Below are positions 1-13,124 of a stretch of DNA of 64,000 bases, in pieces (position 1 is the first letter of the stretch; each line of letters opens with the position of its first letter). The DNA is from Sphyrna mokarran. Taxonomy: Eukaryota. The notes beneath the pieces are model-generated. The model did not search any database, was not told the origin of the DNA, and was given only the letters and a program-made list of their open reading frames with translations. A program made the position numbers and the translations under genes. The stretch covers positions 104,346,001 through 104,410,000 of the forward strand of contig JAGIQG010000007.1 of the NCBI GenBank assembly GCA_024679065.1. The letters run 5' to 3'.

Positions 1-214
1 TTTGTGGCATATTCAAAGCACTGAGGCTGATTTTTAGTTGATTGTTAATGTATCCATCTAATATATTCCTATCAGAAACAGCTGAGACCTTTTCAAAATA
101 TTTATGCGGTGATGTTGTCAGGTCCTTCAATACTATTTTTATATCATTCAGTGGTGTCACTTCCTCAACTCACCATGAGTAGTTTCGATTGGAAAGTGAT
201 TGTTTATGCCATCT

Positions 215-470
215 AGTCACAGAGATATATAGCACAGAAGCAAGCCCTTCAACTCAACTTGTCCATGCTGACCAGATTTCCTTATATTTGGCCAATTCCT
301 TCTAAAGCTTTTTCATCCATTGTACCTGTCGAAATGTATTTTAAATGTTGTAATTGTACCTACCTCTCCCAACTCCCCTGGCAGCTGATTCCATATAAGT
401 ACTACCCTCTACCTGAAGAAGTTGCCCCTCAGATTCCTTTTAAATCTTCTACCTCTCGCCTTATCATTTA
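215..470 (-). mobile_element. CR1 LINE 3' fragment
   Basis: Reverse of the CR1 3' end (gaagggc..ctgtgcta tail; FFR.RVV..WN.LP-like coding remnant). Confidence 0.6.
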
Positions 471-3030
471 AAGGAATACTGAGCTGTGATAAGACAAAGC
501 TAGAAATATAGCAAACCTCATTTGCTGCTTCAGTCTTTAGGAAATTTTGAGCCTGAAAATTTTTCATTAGTTATGTAATTGATGCTATCTGATCTAATAA
601 CATTTCTTCATTAATGAAATATGATTGTCCATTTAACCTTGGATACCAGTCCTGCTCTTTTAAGGGTTAATAATTAGTATCTATCACCTTAGATCTCTTG
701 CTCTCCCAGAGTCATGCTGCCTGTAAGCAGCATGATTAGCACTGGTGACTCACTTGATGTGTTTAAATGAAGCTCAACCAGAAACTTCAAATGGCCCTGC
801 TGCTTGCGTAATTGGGTGAACAAAATGAATCACTCATGCACTGCCTGCCTGATCTGCACTCTGCATGAAAATTGACCCAATAACCTGCTTTGACAAAAAG
901 TCTATAACATTATACAATGGAAAAAAAAATAAGAAAATGTGAGTTAAAATCACTCAGCAATTGCATTATTCAATCAGTGTCTTCCTAATGTGTGCCTCCA
1001 CTCACTTTAATAATATAGTGGAGGGAGGGAAATTGGGAACATGATATATTGTAAAACTGGGAGAGCTATTCAAGGTGTCTGTTATGGAAAAAATTGAGCT
1101 AAAGTACATAGTATAAGGCTTAATAACAACTGTATTGATTGGCTGACTGCCAAGTACAACAGTATTATGATTATGTTTCTGGACTGATATTCTGAAGATC
1201 ACTTCAAAAAATCTATCAATTAAATAAAGAACTACCAAAAGTATCAATGACCATGACACTGTTGGATTATCATAAAAAAAACAATGTGCTTTGGGAAAGA
1301 AGATCTGGTGTCCTTATCAATCTGGTCTTTATATGACTCCAGTCCAGAGCTAATTTAGTTAATATAAAAACAAACTACTGCGCATTCAGGAAGCTGAAAC
1401 AAAAACAGAAAATGCTGAAAATTTAAACTAATCTGACAGCATTTGTGGAAAGATTTTCTTGCATTTTCTAATTTGGTTAATGCTTAATTGATATCTGAAG
1501 TGGCCAAGCAAGAGATCTATTTGTATGAAATGTCTACAAGGAATAAAACAAGGTAGGACTAGCTTTCTAGTTAAAAGAATTATGGAAGCATCTTAGCCAT
1601 TTGGACTGCAGCAATCAAAAATAAAGCCTACCACCCTCATAAAGTTTAAAAGATTCCAGTTATAAGAAGAATCCAATGAAGTGGGGATTGAAAGTAAATA
1701 AAATCAGAGTTCATCTGCTTTAAGAGGGTAAGAGAAGTTCAGAAACATGCCTTACTACATTTGTATGCTCACAGATATGTAATGGCACAAAATAAAGCAT
1801 ATTCTCTAACGCAAGGTCAGTCCATAAAAAAAAAATGACCTGACTCCTGACAAATACAGATAATCACCTCAATAAAGCATTGATAAATTCTAAATTACCA
1901 CAATCTAATAATTTATTTCCTAAGGATACTCTTAAGTCATTTGCCGACTGAATCTGGGAAACTGAGCTCTAATCATAAGGGATAAATTTTGTTGCTTGGG
2001 AGTTATTACTATTTGCAGCCCTCACCATGTTGTCCAGCACAACATGTGCCTACTAGATGAGCCTTTTTTTTATAAATCAAATACATTGGATTTTAACTAG
2101 AAATCGAAAGTTGTATATGACTTATTTGGGAATAAAATTCAAGGCGTAACACCCCGCATTTGTAAAAAAAGAACAATGCAGCCGAGAAACAATATCAATA
2201 TTGGAACCATAAAGTAGAGTTTTAGATTTGTTGAATTTGTTCTACAGTCTCTCGTGGCAAATGTACAACTACTGTACTGCATTGATAAATAGTTCTCTCT
2301 TTGTCTGGGAGAGAGGTATCTCAAACTCTAGCTTTCTATGTGGGGATTTAAGGAAATGATGGATCTTTAAATAACTTATTGTAACATTATTTAGACTTAA
2401 AACCTGAATTCCCCATTGGAAAAGAAATGATAACAGCTATGATTCTCCCAAATTTGGATGAAATGCCCATGCACACTAACCAGGGGAGCACCACCAACCT
2501 CACACCATAGAGTGGTATCCTCCCCTCCACCAACAAATAATGGGTGACACCCTACCCCCCCCCTCACCTCACACAACATGCAGGCAGGAGAGTGACCTGA
2601 TGCAAACACTCCAAGAGCCCTCACTCAGCCTCCCCTTCCCTTTCACATCTCAGCCCCTTGCCCTTCAAATTCCCTACTCAGATTCCTCTGACCCCAGACC
2701 CTTCACTCACACTGCTCAGATCTCCAGTCAGCCCACTCCCTCCTCAGAACCCTCGACTCAGACTTCCAATACAGGTCACGTGCCTTGATAGTGGCAATAC
2801 TCCATTGCCCCCTGACACCTCTTCACTGACATCCTGGCTTAGTGCCTTAGGCCCAAGGAGGTGAAGGAATTAGATCCAATAGTCAGTTGCCTCTCTGCTG
2901 CTGCTTGGCTGCAAAGAAAGAGTTCCAGAAAGATATTGTGGGTTGGGTGGGCTCAGGCTGGGGTCAAGGGGTTGATCTCACGCTCTCTCCTGGGATGGTG
3001 CCTCATGGCTAGTCTGCTTATTTTAGATCC

Positions 3031-3165
3031 TGATGTAAAGATGCCGGCGTTGGATTGGGGTGGTAAGAACTCAGTAAGAACTTAGCAACACCAATTTTTA
3101 ATCCAACCGATTTATTTGATAGTAAAGTTGCGAGCTTTCAACACTCCGTGTCTTCCTCAGGCAAA
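3031..3165 (-). mobile_element. Penelope-like element terminal fragment
   Basis: Reverse complement of the family at 32813-33048 (gatgccggcgttggattgggg...caacacc...tttatttgatagtaaa); carries the hammerhead motif. Confidence 0.6.
3128..3164 (-). ncRNA. Minimal type I hammerhead ribozyme motif (Penelope-like)
   Basis: Minus strand: UUGC-CUGAGGA-A-GACAC(GGA)GUGUU-GAAA-GC-UC^-GCAA. Full catalytic core, stem I UUGC/GCAA, 5-bp stem II, palindromic AGCU in place of stem III. Confidence 0.75.
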
Positions 3166-3596
3166 TGCAGTGTTCTGGTCTGCAATAGCACACATCAGCA
3201 CAGACAGTCAGAGGCTGACAGACAGAAAGACTACCCTTGGCCTGGGTGTTTTAGGCAGTCCTATGATCCACATCTAATTCCAGCTGTGAAAATTCTGAAG
3301 TTACCAGGTCACTTTAATCTCTATACCCCCTAGTCACCAGCCAGGTTTTTAAATCACTATAATACTCCATTCTGCAGCAGACGTTTCCTTTTCTCCCTGT
3401 CAGAAACTGCAGACATAAGCAGCTTTGAAGTCCTCTGACAGACAGGACATGTAAGTCTTATATAGGGCAGTTGGGTAGGAGGGGGGAGCAGTGGGTTCCA
3501 TTCTGCAAAGCTGTGCATTCAGCCCCAATGTATACATGCAGCTTTGATTTGATGTTTATAAAGCATCCCAACAAGCTGAAACACTCTCTATTCCAT

Positions 3597-3993
3597 TGGA
3601 AACCTTGGATCTCTTTTAATTTTGAAGTACAGTGCTTTGAGAAAGACCTTCACTGAGAGCTCAGTGAATTTCTACTCCTGCTCCAGTTAGCTGTGTTGAG
3701 TTGAATTTCTCTTCATGCTTGAATGCATCTCAAGTACCTCCATTGATCCTAACCACAATGTTTACAAAGATTCTGAGCCTGATTGACAATCTGTGGTTTT
3801 TAAAAGACGAAATTACATCATTTATTCCTTTTGAAGAAACCGCAGGCTGTCAATCGGGGTTAGAGTGAGTGTCAACGTTGTGGTTAGGATCAGTGGGTAA
3901 TGCATTCAAGCATAAATGGAAATGAAAATAAACACAGCTGTCAACGAGGCTTCTCTCAAAGCACTGAACTTTGTAATTGATCAAGGCTTTTCT
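3597..3993. repeat. Diverged long inverted repeat
   Basis: Arms at about 3597-3805 and 3827-3993 share blocks such as cagtgctttgaga, atgcttgaatgcat, tgatcctaaccacaa and gattgaca. Confidence 0.8.
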
Positions 3994-5334
3994 AAATATC
4001 AGTTAGAAAATATACTTCAATGAGAGATACATTATTGAAGAGAGATGCCTGGATCCCTATAAAATCTGGGTTGTTATAATCTTGTTAAAGCATGTTAAAC
4101 ACCTGTCTGGTGCACTGTAATATACCCTGCTGATCCTGTTCCTTTAAGAAGAGAGAGATCAGTTGTTCAAGCCCATTCAAGTGTCTGTCTTCTCAACCTT
4201 AAGTGAAAATGATCATCTCAGGAGTATGCCTGATCTGGAATAATCCCAAAAAAGAGCTTGGATTACACTCCACTTCAAGGGCAACTGGGGATGCACAATA
4301 AATTCCAGCCTTGCCAGCATCTCAATAATGCATAAATTGAAATGCACCCACAGTGACTTAAAGCTTAAGCCATCATTTGCCACCATATCAGTTTTTTATC
4401 TAACAGCACTATGTATTAGATAACATTGATTAGATTTTTAACTGGTATTTCACTAGGTTCAAATGTAAGGAACTACACTTCAGAAACTATTACTTGTTGA
4501 TCATGATTATCAAAATGGAAGATCTAATTATTGAGGTATGTTGATAAGAAGCTGAACTATTACATTTTAGCAGTAGAACTGTTAGTAATTACCTCAACTG
4601 CTGTAACAACATCCCACAGCATATATCAAATACTTCTCCTATAGTAAAATAATGGGTAGTCACTGATGACGCACATACTGATTGCGTTGTTGTTTTCCAG
4701 GTATTATAGAGTGATTTTTCATATGTCAAGATTAAACAGTGATAGACAAAGGCAAGTTAGCATGGGGACAATCAGGAATGGTGACTGACTATCTGGGAAT
4801 ACTTAACATAAATGAAGTATGCTTGGCTTGACTGTATGAGATGTAATACTTCAAATCGCTTAACAGCAAAGCAGGTTATTCTACAATAAAATTCCTCACC
4901 AGACCACCAGTAATATCTGGGGGGGAATCATCAGAGAAAGTGAGAAACAAAGGAGTATTTCAGTAGGAGCAATGATAGAGGATACTTATTCAAAAGCAGC
5001 TCGGACCAAGAAAAGTGTATTATATTTATTTTTATCTTCTGAAAAGGTTAATACAAAAGTATGAATCAATAGAATTCAGGATATTATTCTGTTAAACTGA
5101 TATCTAGCTGTCCTCAAATTTTCTAATCAAGTTTATCATGAATTGTGTTAAGCAACTCATTTTTTCTAATCCTGAATGTAAAACAAGAGCATGTTATTTC
5201 AAAATTGAATAAAAATAACATTAGAAGTTCTAAAAAAAACTCTTCAAAGAGCATTATGGAAGACAAGCACCATGCAATTGATGTAAATACAACTGCCAAT
5301 TTGATTAAGCAAAATGAACTGGGTACCAGGTGAT

Positions 5335-5600
5335 GCAATGTGTTCGCATGAGTCCTTTCAACTTTTGGACCTGGATTCAGATAATGAGCAGAATGTTTGC
5401 CATATCATATGTGAATTGAAATTGGGTGGTTCCAATTTAGTTTCTAGTCAGCATTCTCAGGAAACGGAAGTGACCCATAAGCAATAAAGGGTGATATCTG
5501 AATTGTTAGAGCAGAGCAACTGGCTATGCTAACGAGTACTACTTAAGCTTAGTGGAAATGAGGAACATACCATTCCAACTTGCTGACACCCTCAGCAGTA
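5335..5600 (+). mobile_element. Ancient LF-SINE-like remnant
   Basis: cctttcaacttttggacctggattca and tatgtgaattgaaattgggtggttccaatttagtttctagt resemble the recalled LF-SINE head and core. Confidence 0.4.
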
Positions 5601-6885
5601 AAACTCACAGATACATCACCAAAAGCTTAATACCAGTAAAATTTTGCTTTCAAATTCCAATACTAATATTTTTTATTTCTACTACAATGTCTAGCTTTTG
5701 ACGGGCATTGTTTTATTTTAATTGAGAAATGGAGGGCCTCTGTCAATTTGTAATTTCTTACAAAGTGTGCACACAGTAATTGCAAACAATGCAAAATCTA
5801 TAAGCGCTGTCAGGACCTTGGCTGAATGAGTGAAGTATCACTGATTGCTCTCTGGACATTGTTTAAATGTAGACGTTCATTGTATCAGTGTGGACTGAGA
5901 GATGAGCAGAAATCCTAAGGCAATAACACTGAAGTCTCTGAACTGCACTCACAGAACAATAGACAGTAAAATTGTAAGTAATCATGTTATGTTATTTGGC
6001 AGATTGCCAAAATACTCTTCAGTGCTTAATAATGAAAAATTTTATTCAGTAATGATCATTGAAGCAAAACAAACCTTTTATTTTAACAGAATAATTTTAC
6101 AAAACCTGCAAACTGAAGGTGAAGTCTGTGTTAAATTTAACACATTTGGAGAATGCATTTGCCCAACCAAAATGTCAAAGCATTGCATTATTAAAATGGA
6201 CTATTAACACAAAAACATTCTGCTAGGTATTGATGTGATTTAACTTGTGGATTTCTCCCCGGCATTGAATGTGGTATTTCTTAACAAATCCTATGAAGAT
6301 ATTTGAATACTCACAAACACACAACCCATAAGGAATTGTTAATGCGAGAGGTTATGTCCTCTGATATCTTACAATACAAATCAGATTAAAGGTAGAAAGG
6401 ATTGTGTTCCTTTTTCAGAATGAAATATATTAAACTGATTTACATTCTAAAGCTAGATAAGTTAGACTTATCCTAAATGCGAGAGCCTTAGTTGGAGCTG
6501 CATGCATATGTTCACATCTAGTCACACTTTGCACAGACTGCACATCTAGCAAATATCTTGATCAGGAGGAGGAGAAAATATATAATCAGCATGTTTCATA
6601 ATCTGCTGGAAAGAATAAGTAATCACATATTTTGAGTTGTTTGAAAATAGTTTTCAGTAACTATAATGCCATAACTATACTGGCTGGATGATGAAGATAG
6701 CTATATAAATTCTTTAATCACAGAGATGTTTTGTATTTGATCTAGAATCCATATCTGAAACCATTTTGCGGTCAAATGCTAATAATAAGGAAGCAGAGAC
6801 AGAAAATAATTAAAAATTGTTGAGGGCAAGGGAAGTTTCAGAGATAAGACATCAGAATTGATTCAAATCTGGAACTAAGATTACA

Positions 6886-6990
6886 CTAAAACAGAAAATG
6901 CAGGAAAATCTCAGCAGGTCACACCTGCTGAGATTTTTTAGCATGTCTTCTTCTCTCAGATTCCAGCATCCACAATATTTTGCTTTTATA
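6886..6990. mobile_element. Short inverted remnant of the same Penelope-like family
   Basis: aaaatctcagcaggt cac acctgctgagatttt hairpin with family flanks. Confidence 0.5.
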
Positions 6991-8328
6991 TTAAAGATTA
7001 ACTATACACTGCATTACTTTTGAAATCCTATTTCTAAGTCTTGTTCTCTTCAAAGGAATCATCTCCTTATAGTACATAAATATTAGCTATAAAGTTCTTA
7101 AAGCGGCCAAAAAGCAGAGGAATTTCAAGCGGGTTTTTTTTCCCCCATTGTCATGTTGGCAACTAGTTTGAAGCCGAAGTGTGAAATCACACATGCCAAA
7201 AAAATCAAGAGAATTTGTCACTTTAACTGGCTGCACGTTGAATGTGTTTGAATGTGTGCTACAACAAGTTAGCACGTGTCTACAAAGTCCCCTACATATA
7301 AAGGCATATAAATCAATAGTATGATGCGAATCAAACCCATACCCTGGTGTCCACCTTCCTGCGCCGAATTCTTCTGATCATGTAAATATTTTGTTAGAGT
7401 AACTCCTTACCTTAAACCTCACGTGGTTCTCAACGAAAGCCAGCTGAGGTATTCATCCTGAACGATTCTGGGCAGGGAATGAGTTAAGCTGCTCCAAATG
7501 TTATGATAGGCATTACAAAATATTTAAATGGCGAGTTTCCATCACGTTTTATGATCTGCAACGCACCTCGACTTTCTAAGAGACCTGGAGCACAAAAAAT
7601 TTGTTTGCTATAGTAAAATACAGTGAAGTAAGAATTTTATGATTTCCTGAAGCGGTCGAATGGCTGGCAATGTATCGGATTCACCGTGATTGGGGCCGCG
7701 CAGTTTGTAAACAGCAGAACTGTGCTTTGAAGGCATAACCGTGCCAGATTCAAAGCTTCAAACAGGACCGAGAACGGAAATTATTCATTTCAACCACAGA
7801 AGGAGATTATTTGCAAACAGAACCGGTTTCCATTGCCGAAAATGAATACATAATAGACTGGTGGGGTGGCGACCACATTCAGACTTTAGTTGGTTGAATG
7901 GTAAATAGATGGCAGTGAGGATACAGCGGGGCGGGGGGTGGGGACTTGTTGCCAATGCCAGGAATCTCTGTGGGAAATGAGCGGGAGGATTCTGTTAATT
8001 ACATGTTTTAGTCTAGTGGCGGCCACCTCCAATGCAGGTACTTTTTACTGCTTAAGAACCTTCAGCAAATAGCCTCAACTCTGAGCACCTGTAACTAAAA
8101 GAATTAGAGACCGCGAAGTTCTGATAAATTCGATTACGTTAAAAACCCAGATGAAAATATAGTGAGAATTGACACCAATTTTGTAACGGTCTAAAAGTTG
8201 GACGCTTTTGTGTGTTATAGCTGTTATTCACTGAATAGGTATTTGGAAATATTGAATATATATTGCCTCGTCAGTAGTTTTTTTATATTCATTTGTGGGA
8301 TATGGACGTTGCTGCTTAGCCATTTATT

Positions 8329-8648
8329 GGGTGACATGGTGATATTGTGGTTACCATTGCTGCCTCACAGCACCAGGGACCTGTATTCAATTTCATCCTG
8401 GGGTCACTGTCTGTGCAGAGTCTGCACGTTCTCCCTGTGTCTGTGTGGGTTTCCTCTGGGTGCTCTGGTTTCCTCCCACAATCCAAAGATGGCCAGGTTA
8501 GGAACATTGGCCATGATAAACAAACCCTAGTGTCAGGGGATTATCATGCTAAATGTGAGGGGTTACCAAAATTGGGCTTGGGTGGGATTATGGTCCATGA
8601 AGCCTGGATGGGTTAAACAATCTCCTTCAGTATTGTAGGGATTCTCTA
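8329..8648 (+). mobile_element. HE1-like tRNA-derived V-SINE with CR1-type tail
   Basis: tRNA-like head (tggttaccattgctgcctcacag..ttcaatt), V domain (tgggtttcctctgggtgctctggtttcctcccaca), tail gtagggattctcta. Confidence 0.8.
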
Positions 8649-8659
8649 ACCCGATCTCT

Positions 8660-8945
8660 AGTTGACTTGGAGGGAGGCCAGCTGAGACTCAACCACATTG
8701 CTGTGGCACTGGGGTCACATGTAGGCTAGAATTCTTTCCCTAGAGGACATGAGTGAACCAGGTAGCTTTTTTTCAGACAATCCACAATGGTTTCATGGGT
8801 ATCAGCATTCTTAATTCTAGATTTTTTTAAATTGAATTCAAATTCCATATCTAGCAGGATTCGAACCTGGGTTCCCCGGAACTGAATTTAGCTGAGTTTC
8901 TGAATTGATAGTCTAGCCATAATGCTACTAGGCCATCGCCTCTCC
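8660..8945 (-). mobile_element. Deu-domain SINE (SacSINE1-like)
   Basis: Reverse complement of the 19224-19570 family. Confidence 0.7.
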
Positions 8946-9071
8946 TTAGCAAGCAGTGCAAAACTTTAAAACAAAATGGAGAGAGAGATGTGTAAGTTCC
9001 AGTGTACGCATCAGAGATAAATTGACAAATCTGAACAAATAAAAATAGCACTCAATCAATAATTGGGTCCA

Positions 9072-9077
9072 TTTATT
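9072..9077 (-). terminator. Putative CBLN2 polyadenylation signal
   Basis: AATAAA on the minus strand with overlapping TGTA upstream and U/GU-rich sequence downstream (gtgctatttttatttgttc); about 680 nt after the stop. Confidence 0.6.
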
Positions 9078-9754
9078 ACAATCATTCGTGGTATGCTTCG
9101 TGTTATTAATCTATAGGTTACTCTTTCTGCACCCGAAGAACACCAACCACAACACAAAGAAGGATAGGAGCTGCGTTCAATTCGTGCAAAGAAACCTTTT
9201 GTGATAAAACACTTCTTCAAAACCAGCTCACCCACAGAAACGATACATAAATTTCCCCAAATTTAAAAAAAAACACGCCACTGAATTTGGACTTGTTCTT
9301 TACTTAAGGCTATATACGAACACGAAAGAAAGCATTGCTAGAACATTTAAATCAAAACCCTAACTTGTTACTCTTTTTTTTGTTTAAATTACGCGGTTTT
9401 TGAGCTGTCACTTGCGAGTTACTCTCTTCGTCCGCCCAAGGTTCGGTTCGTTCAATCAAAGAAAAAATCCGCCCGTAAGAAAATCCAGCTTCTATTGTCT
9501 CGCCAGAAATTGTCCTTGTCAATAAATTCACTTGATATCCTAAAGAGCACTGTCACCAGAGCTACTTAGAACCACATTGGCCAAGGCAATTGTCAGGAAT
9601 TCGAAGGAATTATTCTAATCGGTAGGTAATGACTCTGCTCCTACTCAGCAGTTAGGTGGTTTTGGCATTAATAATCTTGTTCTGTTGCAATATCGATTAA
9701 TGTACATGGCGACTTAGTCCTCAGCGAAGGGTTACGACCAGTATTGGTGTCCCT

Positions 9755-10033
<279 letters not shown>

Positions 10034-10150
10034 CTAACACCCCCCTCCCCCCCCCCGCCCCTCCACTGTTACAACACAATGCTCCCCGCGTTAGACTGGC
10101 ACTACCATTCTGTACCTGTACCCGGGCAATCCCCCTTCCCCTTTTTTTCT

Positions 10151-10350
10151 AAAAGCAAAACACTCCAGATGCTGGAAATCTGATATAAAAACAGAAAATA
10201 CTGCATAAACTCAGCAGGTCTGCTAGCAGCTATGGAGAGAGAAACAGAGTTAATGGAGAGAGAAACAGAGTTAATGTTTCGAGTCCAATATGACCCTTCT
10301 ACATGTAACTATATTCTGAGACCTGGCGAGTTTTTCCAGCGTGCTTTGTT
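10151..10350 (-). mobile_element. Penelope-like terminal fragment in CBLN2 last intron
   Basis: Same family as 32201-32612 (aaacagaaaat..ctcagcaggtctg..gtttcgagtcc..gaccctt); contains a 21-bp internal tandem duplication. Confidence 0.6.
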
Positions 10351-10418
10351 CCTTTCTATCATACCTGCCTATATATTACACTTCTTCCCTACTCTCTCTC
10401 TCTGTTCGTCTTTTTTTA

Positions 10419-10685
<267 letters not shown>

Positions 10686-11439
10686 TTAACGCGCGCGAAA
10701 ACTTGCGGAGCGGGGCTGGTGGTGAGGCTAAAGGGAGGGAGGGGAGGTGGGCAACAAGGTTCGCCTGGAGATTTGAGATGCAGTGGCCGGACATGGGATT
10801 CGACAAGTTCCCCGGGTCCGTTCCGTGCACTAGGAACAGGCTGAGAGTGAAGGCTAACCCAGCGGTTCGGGAGTATTGTAACCAGAAGAAAGAGACTTTC
10901 TCTCTCACACACACATGCACAGCCAGTGGAAATGATATTAAATCATCCAGAATGTGAGAAGCCACACAACGCGGGGCAAATATCTGGGAAGCAAATTGCT
11001 GAAAGTTCACATTTAATAAAATGTGTAAAATAAAATAAAGGGCAAAGTTGAACAGATAAAGGGTAATTTTTGGCTACAGATAGGTGTGTGCATAAGGCGG
11101 CCAAAGTTAACCACTTAAGTAAGATTGTATGAACGGATCTCCAATCTGTAAAAATGTGCAAACAACAGATAATATGATCGAACTGAGTGAAAAGGGGATG
11201 GGGGTCATTTCGCCCCAGTTCCAGTCTCAGTTTTTATTACCCCATTACACCCCCCCCCCAACTTTTTACAGGTTTTTATACGAAATGCAAGATTGGAGAA
11301 AGTGAGCGAGATATTAACAGAGGGAGCTGGGGTTGGGGTAGGGGAGCGGGTGGGTTGATAGGGGGAACTATGTGTGTATGTAGGGAAGGGGAGGCAAGTG
11401 GAGACACGGGGAGTTGGAGGAGACGGATACAAGGGGACA

Positions 11440-12050
11440 GAGGAAAACAAGGGGCTGGGGGAAGGGGAGACAGGGAGCTGGGGGAAGGGGAGACAGGGAG
11501 CTGGGGCAAGGGGAGATAGGGAGCTGGGGCAAGGGGAGACAGGGAGCAGGGGGCAAGGGGAGACAGGGAGCTGGGGCAAGGGAGACAGAGGGGGAGACAG
11601 GGGCTGGGGCAAGGGGAGACAGGGAGCTGGGGGAAGGGGAGACAGGGAGCTGGGGCAAAGGGGAGACTTGGGGCAAGTGGGGAGGGGACTGGGAAGGGGA
11701 GACAGGGAGCTGGGGGAAGGGGAGACTGGGGAAGGGGAGACTGGGGGAAGGGGAGACAGGGAGCTGGGGGAAGGGGAGACTGGGGGAAGGGGAGACTGGG
11801 GAAGGGGAGACTGGGGGAAGGGGAGACTGGGGGAAGGGGAGACAGGGAGGGGGAAGGGGAGACAGGGGGGGGGTGGGGGGGGGAGACTGGGGCTGGGGGA
11901 AGGGAGACTGGGGGAAGGGAGACAGGGAGTTGGGGCAAGGGGAGACAGGGAGTTGGGGCAAGGGAGACAGGGAGCTGGGGGGGGGGAACCGGGGGAAAAG
12001 GAGGCAAGAGGAGCTGGGGAAAGGGAGCTGGGGGAAAGGGAGACGGGGGA
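11440..12050 (+). repeat. G-rich minisatellite (approx. 22-bp unit ggggaaggggagacagggagct with shorter variants) in CBLN2 intron
   Basis: Tandem units directly visible; source of spurious Pro/Gly-rich ORFs. Confidence 0.9.
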
Positions 12051-12315
12051 AGACAAAAGGAGCTAGCGGAAAGGGTGAGGGGGAGCTGCGAGGAGGGGAA
12101 AGGGAGAGCGGGAGGGAGATAGGGAAGGCAAAAGGAGCTGGGCGGGGGGGGGGGGGGGAAGGGAAAGGGAAGGAGTTGGCGGCAAGGGTGAGGAGGAGCT
12201 GGGGGGGGGGGTGGAGGGAAACCTGGGGGAGCGGCAGAGAGATAGGGAAAGGCAGAAGGAGCTGGCGGAGAAAGGGGGACCGGGGGAAAAGGAGAAAGGG
12301 GATCTGGGATGATTA

Positions 12316-13124
<809 letters not shown>

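What the first reader, a model, noticed from the sequence alone, without database searches (positions are those of the whole stretch)
3128..3164. Essentially intact minimal hammerhead ribozyme downstream of CBLN2, on the gene's strand
Seen: the minus strand reads UUGC CUGAGGA A GACAC-GGA-GUGUU GAAA GC UC^ GCAA. All conserved core nucleotides, a 4-bp stem I and a 5-bp stem II are present, with a CUC cleavage triplet (predicted cut between 3132 and 3131). The only apparent decay is G-U in place of G-C at the base of stem II. Established: Penelope-like elements carry minimal type I hammerheads whose palindromic stem III (here AGCU) forms as a dimer. Inference: this copy may still cleave and lies about 6 kb past the CBLN2 polyA site in sense orientation, so read-through RNA would contain it.
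Basis: partly seen in the sequence, partly recalled or inferred. Interest (0 to 1): 0.7.

Follow-up and report, generated by a model that had tools for sequence, protein, structure and literature searches.

The report
Penelope retrotransposon stub with minimal hammerhead
The small self-cutting-RNA motif is real but belongs to a 185-base leftover end of a common jumping gene, with hundreds of identical copies elsewhere in the genome and no copy at this spot in a related organism, so it likely sits near the cerebellin gene by chance and likely does not cut on its own.

Summary
The motif is present exactly as described (3164-3128, minus strand). It lies in a 185-bp insertion (3030-3214) that is 98-99% identical to the terminal repeat (pLTR) and tail of a young Penelope-like retrotransposon with reverse transcriptase, GIY-YIG nuclease and a Neptune-type linker. 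The same 37 bases occur 385 times in the genome, the wider motif 10,611 times, without strand bias. The G-U pair is therefore the subfamily's fixed state, not decay. A contig from a related organism joins the two flanks without the insertion, so it is not a conserved cerebellin element; about 1-4% of genes should have a same-strand copy within 6 kb by chance. Cleavage of this lone copy is unlikely: published minimal Penelope hammerheads are inactive as monomers or need the element's protein, and this one is predicted to misfold. The polyA site and read-through RNA were not verified. Known kind; this scan has noted such motifs before (284 notes, at least 27 genomes).

The parts
3030..3214 (-). 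185-bp insertion: 5'-truncated pLTR end plus tail of a Penelope-like (Neptune-type) retrotransposon, including one copy of a 4-bp TCAG duplication
   Evidence: Aligns to the 5' pLTR of full-length copies L034 and L036 with 2 substitutions; one contig of run X7 joins 3029 to 3215
3128..3164 (-). Minimal type I hammerhead motif (37 nt)
   Evidence: 385 exact copies in the genome
3161..3164 (-). Stem I, 5' strand
   Evidence: pair probabilities 0.40-0.94 in the isolated 37-mer
3154..3160 (-). Core C3-A9 (CUGAGGA, N7 = G)
3153..3153 (-). Extra A between A9 and G10.1, typical of min-HHRs
   Evidence: A in 81 of 81 family copies; PMC4209133
3140..3152 (-). Stem II, 5 bp with G10.1-U11.1 base pair and 3-nt loop
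   Evidence: pair probabilities 0.97-1.0 in the 37-mer; G-U in 31 of 81, G-C in 46 of 81 family copies
3133..3139 (-). G12-A15.1 and loopless palindromic stem III (AGCU)
   Evidence: AGCU in 78 of 81 copies
3131..3132 (-). Predicted cleavage site after C17 (CUC triplet); untested
   Evidence: Hammerhead numbering applied
3128..3131 (-). Stem I, 3' strand
3031..3071 (-). Approximate 'tail': stretch between the two family 3'-end classes (about 60 and about 100 nt after the cut site); ends at the element's ORF start codon
3215..3218 (-). TCAG at the 5' junction, repeated at 3033-3030 (target duplication or microhomology)
9755..12933 (-). Context only: cerebellin gene, three coding exons (12933-12646, 10631-10512, 9952-9755)

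Best explanation
The motif is the minimal hammerhead of a Penelope-like retrotransposon's terminal repeat, carried in a 185-base truncated insertion that likely landed here recently and by chance and is likely inactive as a lone copy. Mechanism: the full element (about 3.0 kb, repeat-ORF-repeat) encodes a reverse transcriptase and GIY-YIG nuclease (shown). The protein would nick the target, start copying about 100 nt 3' of the hammerhead's cut site (inferred from family 3' ends and PMC11167929), copy through the uncut hammerhead (shown: the insertion spans the cut site) and stop about 50 nt 5' of it. In the element's own RNA the hammerhead would cut only as a dimer through AGCU or with the element's protein (inferred from published homologues). 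At this locus it has no free partner, is predicted to misfold, and lies in RNA that would be downstream of polyadenylation.
For: 39 other hits at 98-99% identity over the same ~174 bases among 40 scored of 1,135 candidates. 385 exact 37-mers, 193 forward and 192 reverse; 10,611 wider motifs; 35,083 exact copies of the downstream 25-mer. 2 of 8 extended loci hold two same-strand hammerheads 3,024 and 3,019 bp apart around the ORF; RVT_1 and GIY-YIG pass Pfam cut-offs. Window copy differs from these by 2 substitutions, both outside the motif. 23 of 30 query-selected copies end 98-104 nt after the cut site and 7 of 7 second, inverted copies end at 56-66 nt, the tail signature. Empty site in a contig of organism D. 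Monomer MFE -7.9 kcal/mol with core mispaired against -5.6 for the open core; active dimer fold -9.5 against -22.5 for the best two-strand fold. PMC4209133 and PMC11167929 on activity.
Against: No cleavage assay and no RNA data were available. The empty site rests on one contig of one run. Nearest-neighbour energies ignore the tertiary contacts of the core and any protein. The core is intact, so cleavage with the element's protein or in trans with abundant family transcripts is not excluded. Neptune assignment rests on one linker motif, no tree.
Confidence: 0.9

Rival explanations
1. Same transposon origin, but the copy is cleaved now and then in cerebellin read-through RNA, helped by the element's protein or by pairing in trans with other family transcripts, with no effect on the gene.
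For: All core bases intact; same strand as the gene; PMC11167929 shows protein-assisted cleavage of a Poseidon hammerhead; the AGCU palindrome is shared by 78 of 81 family copies, so partners could be abundant.
Against: PMC11167929 found no RNA-seq ends at the cut site; seven AATAAA hexamers lie between the stop codon and the motif; the nearest intact same-strand relative, about 5.3 kb further on, is locked in a ~200-nt hairpin; G-U and the G5A6G7 mispairing should lower activity (effect of G-U not found in the papers searched).
Confidence: 0.07
2. A domesticated ribozyme that helps end or destabilise cerebellin transcripts, like the rodent Clec2 3' UTR hammerhead.
For: Intact core, sense orientation, downstream of the gene.
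Against: Empty orthologous site; 2 substitutions from active-family copies; 44 of 81 family copies picked elsewhere are also intact; 1.1-3.7% of genes expected to have such a neighbour; about 6 kb beyond the first polyA hexamer.
Confidence: 0.02
3. A chance match to the hammerhead pattern.
For: No Rfam hit; the motif is short.
Against: 0 of 200 simulations; position in the pLTR; stem II covaries across 49 distinct variants.
Confidence: 0.01

Closest known systems
Minimal hammerheads (min-HHR) in pLTRs of metazoan Penelope-like elements (Cervera and De la Pena 2014, PMC4209133)
   Same: Type I, 4-bp stem I, extra base between 9 and 10.1, loopless palindromic 15.2-16.2, sits in both flanking repeats about 3 kb apart, mostly single truncated copies, pairs on opposite strands, many variable subfamilies.
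   Different: G10.1-U11.1 fixed in a large subfamily where the paper reports G10.1-C11.1 as highly conserved; stem II 5 bp (3-5 in the family); at least 10,611 motifs of one family group against about 4,000 and 9,000 in coelacanth and Xenopus.
Poseidon element of the green anole, PAc (Frangieh et al. 2024, PMC11167929)
   Same: pLTR hammerhead, RT plus C-terminal GIY-YIG, two 3'-end classes about 40 nt apart (tail), copies made through the uncut hammerhead.
   Different: Here the ORF starts 100 nt after the cut site rather than inside stem II, the copies end at the start codon, and the RT-EN linker has a CX4CxxC motif (Neptune/Nematis type, PMC8557442).
Animal non-LTR retrozymes (bioRxiv 10.64898/2026.07.22.740005; PMC7229834 seen in listing only)
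   Same: Short non-coding pLTR-related pieces with a type I hammerhead, mostly intergenic.
   Different: This copy is a single truncated end of an autonomous element, not a tandem array; no tandem repeat at the site.
Rodent Clec2 3' UTR hammerhead (named in PMC6155905 figure legend; details recalled)
   Same: Hammerhead 3' of a coding sequence in sense orientation.
   Different: That one lies inside the mRNA's 3' UTR; this one is a minimal motif about 6 kb beyond the first polyA hexamer and absent at the site in a related organism.

Membership tests
Minimal type I hammerhead of PLEs | Core C3 U4 G5 A6 N7 G8 A9, G12 A13 A14 A15.1, U16.1 H17 | tested here: met
Minimal type I hammerhead of PLEs | Open stem I of 4-5 bp and a stem II hairpin | tested here: met
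   stem II covariation (pair 2: 46 of 49 variants paired, shuffle mean 41.2; pair 4: 29 of 49, mean 19.2; relatedness not controlled)
Minimal type I hammerhead of PLEs | Unpaired base between 9 and 10.1 | tested here: met
   A3153; 81 of 81 copies
Minimal type I hammerhead of PLEs | Palindromic 15.2-16.2 | tested here: met
   AGCU; 78 of 81 copies; invariant, so no covariation evidence
Minimal type I hammerhead of PLEs | G10.1-C11.1 pair (highly conserved, not absolute) | tested here: inconclusive
   This copy has G-U; family G-C 46, G-U 31 of 81; effect on activity not found in print
Minimal type I hammerhead of PLEs | Located in the pLTRs of a PLE | tested here: met
Minimal type I hammerhead of PLEs | Self-cleavage as dimer or with protein | not testable with these tools
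   Needs an assay
EN+ Penelope-like element | Single ORF with RT and C-terminal GIY-YIG | tested here: met
   Family copies: RVT_1 39 bits, GIY-YIG 23.6-24 bits; ORF broken in all full-span copies seen; the window copy has no ORF
EN+ Penelope-like element | Direct pLTRs, inverted 5'-truncated partners, 30-40 bp tail, 5' truncation | tested here: met
   features as listed in PMC8557442
Neptune clade | CX2-5CxxC motif in the RT-EN linker | tested here: met
   CX4CxxC in P0001; shared with Nematis per PMC8557442
Neptune clade | RT phylogeny | not tested
   No reference PLE sequences held
Domesticated gene-regulatory hammerhead | Conserved at the orthologous site | tested here: not met
   Empty site in one contig of organism D
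Domesticated gene-regulatory hammerhead | Inside the gene's transcript | not tested
   No RNA data laid
Non-LTR retrozyme | Tandem head-to-tail array | tested here: not met
   No tandem repeat at the site; single copy in the window

The most novel reading that the evidence does not exclude
A young Penelope subfamily scatters intact, protein-gated hammerheads behind hundreds of genes; this one cuts cerebellin read-through RNA only when the element's protein or a sister transcript is present, giving a lineage-specific, transposon-switched aid to transcription termination.
Probability: 0.03. Interest if true: 0.65.

Novelty: new member of a known kind. Interest (0 to 1): 0.15.

Why it matters
As a single locus it matters little: it is one of thousands of retrotransposon ends. 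The family is of modest use for an open question, what the Penelope hammerhead does. A subfamily with G-U at the base of stem II and a predicted self-blocking G at position 7 has spread recently to hundreds of identical copies, which suggests that fast unaided cleavage is not needed for spreading, in line with the in vitro result in PMC11167929. Sister subfamilies with G-C and G-U give a natural matched set for an assay. If the copy did cut cerebellin read-through RNA, it would be a route by which transposons add cleavage sites behind genes.

Tried and rejected
Rfam scan of 1-12000: no hammerhead family at E<=10. Run search: no RNA holder listed; no RNA was laid, so the polyA site and read-through remain open. 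Test for family copies that begin exactly at the cut site: 185 matches at the cut site against 87 and 53 at two control positions (corrected about 515, 142, 103, at most 1.5% of 35,083 copies). Inspection of 30 of 185, 20 of 87 and 20 of 53 loci showed the classes are mixed: at the cut site 13 inverted junctions, 10 same-sense (mutated intact motifs, microhomology deletions) and 7 scored as flank, several of which still look element-derived by eye. Inconclusive; not used as evidence of cleavage. Scripts 33 (copy parsing) and 41 (3' ends) had offset errors and were redone. The exon-1 query was out of frame, so those blanks mean nothing; redone. The protein atlas gave no answer. Literature on G10.1-U11.1: two searches and passages of two papers gave no measurement. 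Literature on shark Penelope hammerheads: one search gave one review whose only 'shark' refers to the motif's shape; one search listed genome papers, none read. Considered and rejected: dimer with the neighbouring copy 5.3 kb away (hairpin-locked); retrozyme array.

Full report
Observation. It is the only match of my descriptor in the window; the strict form arose in 0 of 200 Markov simulations. Rfam has no hit. The nearby gene is a three-exon cerebellin on the same strand (stop at 9755). The first AATAAA after the stop is at 9077, 5,913 nt from the motif; six more AATAAA lie in between.

What it sits in. A search of the own genome with 3040-3260 gave 1,135 candidates; 40 were scored, and 39 other places match about 174 bases at 98-99%. 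The 37-mer itself occurs 385 times, the window's copy included, 193 forward and 192 reverse. A wider pattern that fixes the core, G10.1 and a pyrimidine at 11.1 gives 10,611 matches, and a 25-mer just downstream of the motif 35,083. I extended 8 of the 30 loci. Two hold same-strand hammerheads 3,024 and 3,019 bp apart around a broken ORF, and several carry an inverted truncated partner. ORF pieces pass the Pfam cut-offs for RVT_1 and GIY-YIG, and the linker has a CX4CxxC motif, which PMC8557442 (passages read) gives for Neptune and Nematis. No copy I saw had one unbroken ORF. The window copy matches the 5' repeat of these elements with 2 substitutions, both outside the motif. It ends 101 nt after the cut site, at the element's start codon. 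In loci L001-L030, 23 of 30 query-selected copies end at 98-104 nt, 4 run on into the ORF and 3 end at 95, 107 and 111; all 7 second, inverted copies end at 56-66 nt. The first class is favoured by my query, but two classes about 40 nt apart are the tail described in PMC11167929 (main text and part of the methods read; supplements not seen).

Age and specificity. In one search one 993-nt contig of run X7 (organism D) covers 2618-3029 and 3215-3700 without a break, so the site is empty there and the insertion is 3030-3214, with TCAG repeated at both junctions. A contig of run X2 also stops at 3215; X6 gave no informative piece among those shown. Run X1, possibly the assembly's own sample, has contigs across both junctions, so the insertion is not an assembly error. 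With the genome-wide densities, a same-strand copy within 6 kb is expected for 1.1% (wider motif) to 3.7% (downstream 25-mer) of genes, about 230-745 of an assumed 20,000.

The G-U pair and covariation. I took the first 100 matches of the downstream 25-mer (all from the first 5.2 Mb of one contig; arms of inverted pairs are not independent). 81 keep the motif region and 19 are truncated or rearranged; 44 of 81 are intact. Pair 10.1-11.1 is G-C in 46 and G-U in 31; copies with U11.1 are more often intact (25 of 33) than those with C11.1 (19 of 48). Of 32 core changes, 26 are G-to-A after a C, that is CpG decay; my filter allowed up to 3 mismatches per block, which favours conservation. Stem II covaries: pair 2 is A-U 51, G-U 14, G-C 13; pair 4 is A-U 40, U-A 8, C-G 6; among 49 distinct variants pairs 2 and 4 exceed letter shuffles (p 0.0004 each; relatedness not controlled). 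Pair 1 does not exceed shuffles, being nearly invariant, and stem III is invariant. So G-U is inherited from the source element, likely a fixed CpG transition (inference), and a lineage with it kept spreading.

Would this copy cut? PMC4209133 (parts 1-2 of 4 read; supplements not seen) found no cleavage of a single min-HHR and low cleavage of dimers and trimers. PMC11167929 found cleavage only with the element's protein, no need of cleavage for insertion in vitro, and no RNA-seq ends at the cut site. Here the monomer's best fold pairs G5-A6-G7 with C16.2-U16.1-C17 (-7.9 against -5.6 kcal/mol for the open core), and the double-hammerhead fold (-9.5) is far above the best two-strand fold (-22.5); these energies omit tertiary contacts and protein. 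The nearest intact same-strand relative lies about 2.1 kb beyond the window's left end, belongs to a G-C sister subfamily and is one arm of a ~200-nt hairpin that pairs its core. The insertion spans the cut site, so its template was uncut or religated. CUC fits the NUH rule (passage in PMC4191386). I found no measurement for G10.1-U11.1 (passages of PMC544870 and PMC2837043). Even if cut, RNA downstream of a used polyA site is already severed from the mRNA (established knowledge, recalled).

Family-level clues. A test for copies that begin at the cut site was inconclusive (see Tried and rejected). After reading earlier notes I mapped 5' ends: of 80 copies, 20 begin within 9 nt 5' of C3, then 7, 7, 3, 2 and 1 in the next 10-nt bins, and 40 extend 60 nt or more. 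Many of the 20 are inverted junctions, paired arms or sit at a TGCA palindrome, so this agrees only in part with notes e1-9271369 and e1-8024068. The window copy is not of that class: it begins 50 nt 5' of stem I.

Comparison and verdict. It works like, and is a member of, the min-HHRs of Penelope-like elements; activity is untested. It fails the tests for a domesticated regulatory hammerhead and for a tandem retrozyme (results section of bioRxiv 10.64898/2026.07.22.740005 read, part 1 of 2). Searches showed no paper on this family, but PMC6155905 (passages) says all available PLE sequences carry hammerheads. This scan holds 284 notes on such motifs in at least 27 genomes, none near this place. 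New member of a known kind; interest 0.15.

Noticed in passing
L039 7287-7485 (about 2.1 kb left of the window start): Hairpin insertion of a sister subfamily with two inverted hammerheads (G-C at stem II base in one arm), flanked by a 14-bp target duplication.
   Followed up: partly
window 29022-28980, minus strand: Decayed minimal hammerhead of another family, with the stem III palindrome broken.
   Followed up: partly
window 3618-3978: Nested inverted repeats (arms of 72, 40 and 32 nt), MITE-like.
   Followed up: no
window 1359-1489, 6873-6995, 10143-10276: Short inverted and direct repeats that resemble tails of other Penelope-type stubs (resemblance recalled).
   Followed up: no
window 11320-12611: Long G-rich tandem repeats in cerebellin intron 1.
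   Followed up: no
L010 around 1335-1690: Small inverted-pair insertion with an apparent 12-bp target duplication whose start resembles the element's 3' end.
   Followed up: no
family copies: Subfamilies with G at position 7 (16 of 81 copies) can pair G5-A6-G7 with the CUC triplet, a possible built-in off state.
   Followed up: partly
L171: A copy in which the whole hammerhead appears deleted between the two similar stem I strands.
   Followed up: no
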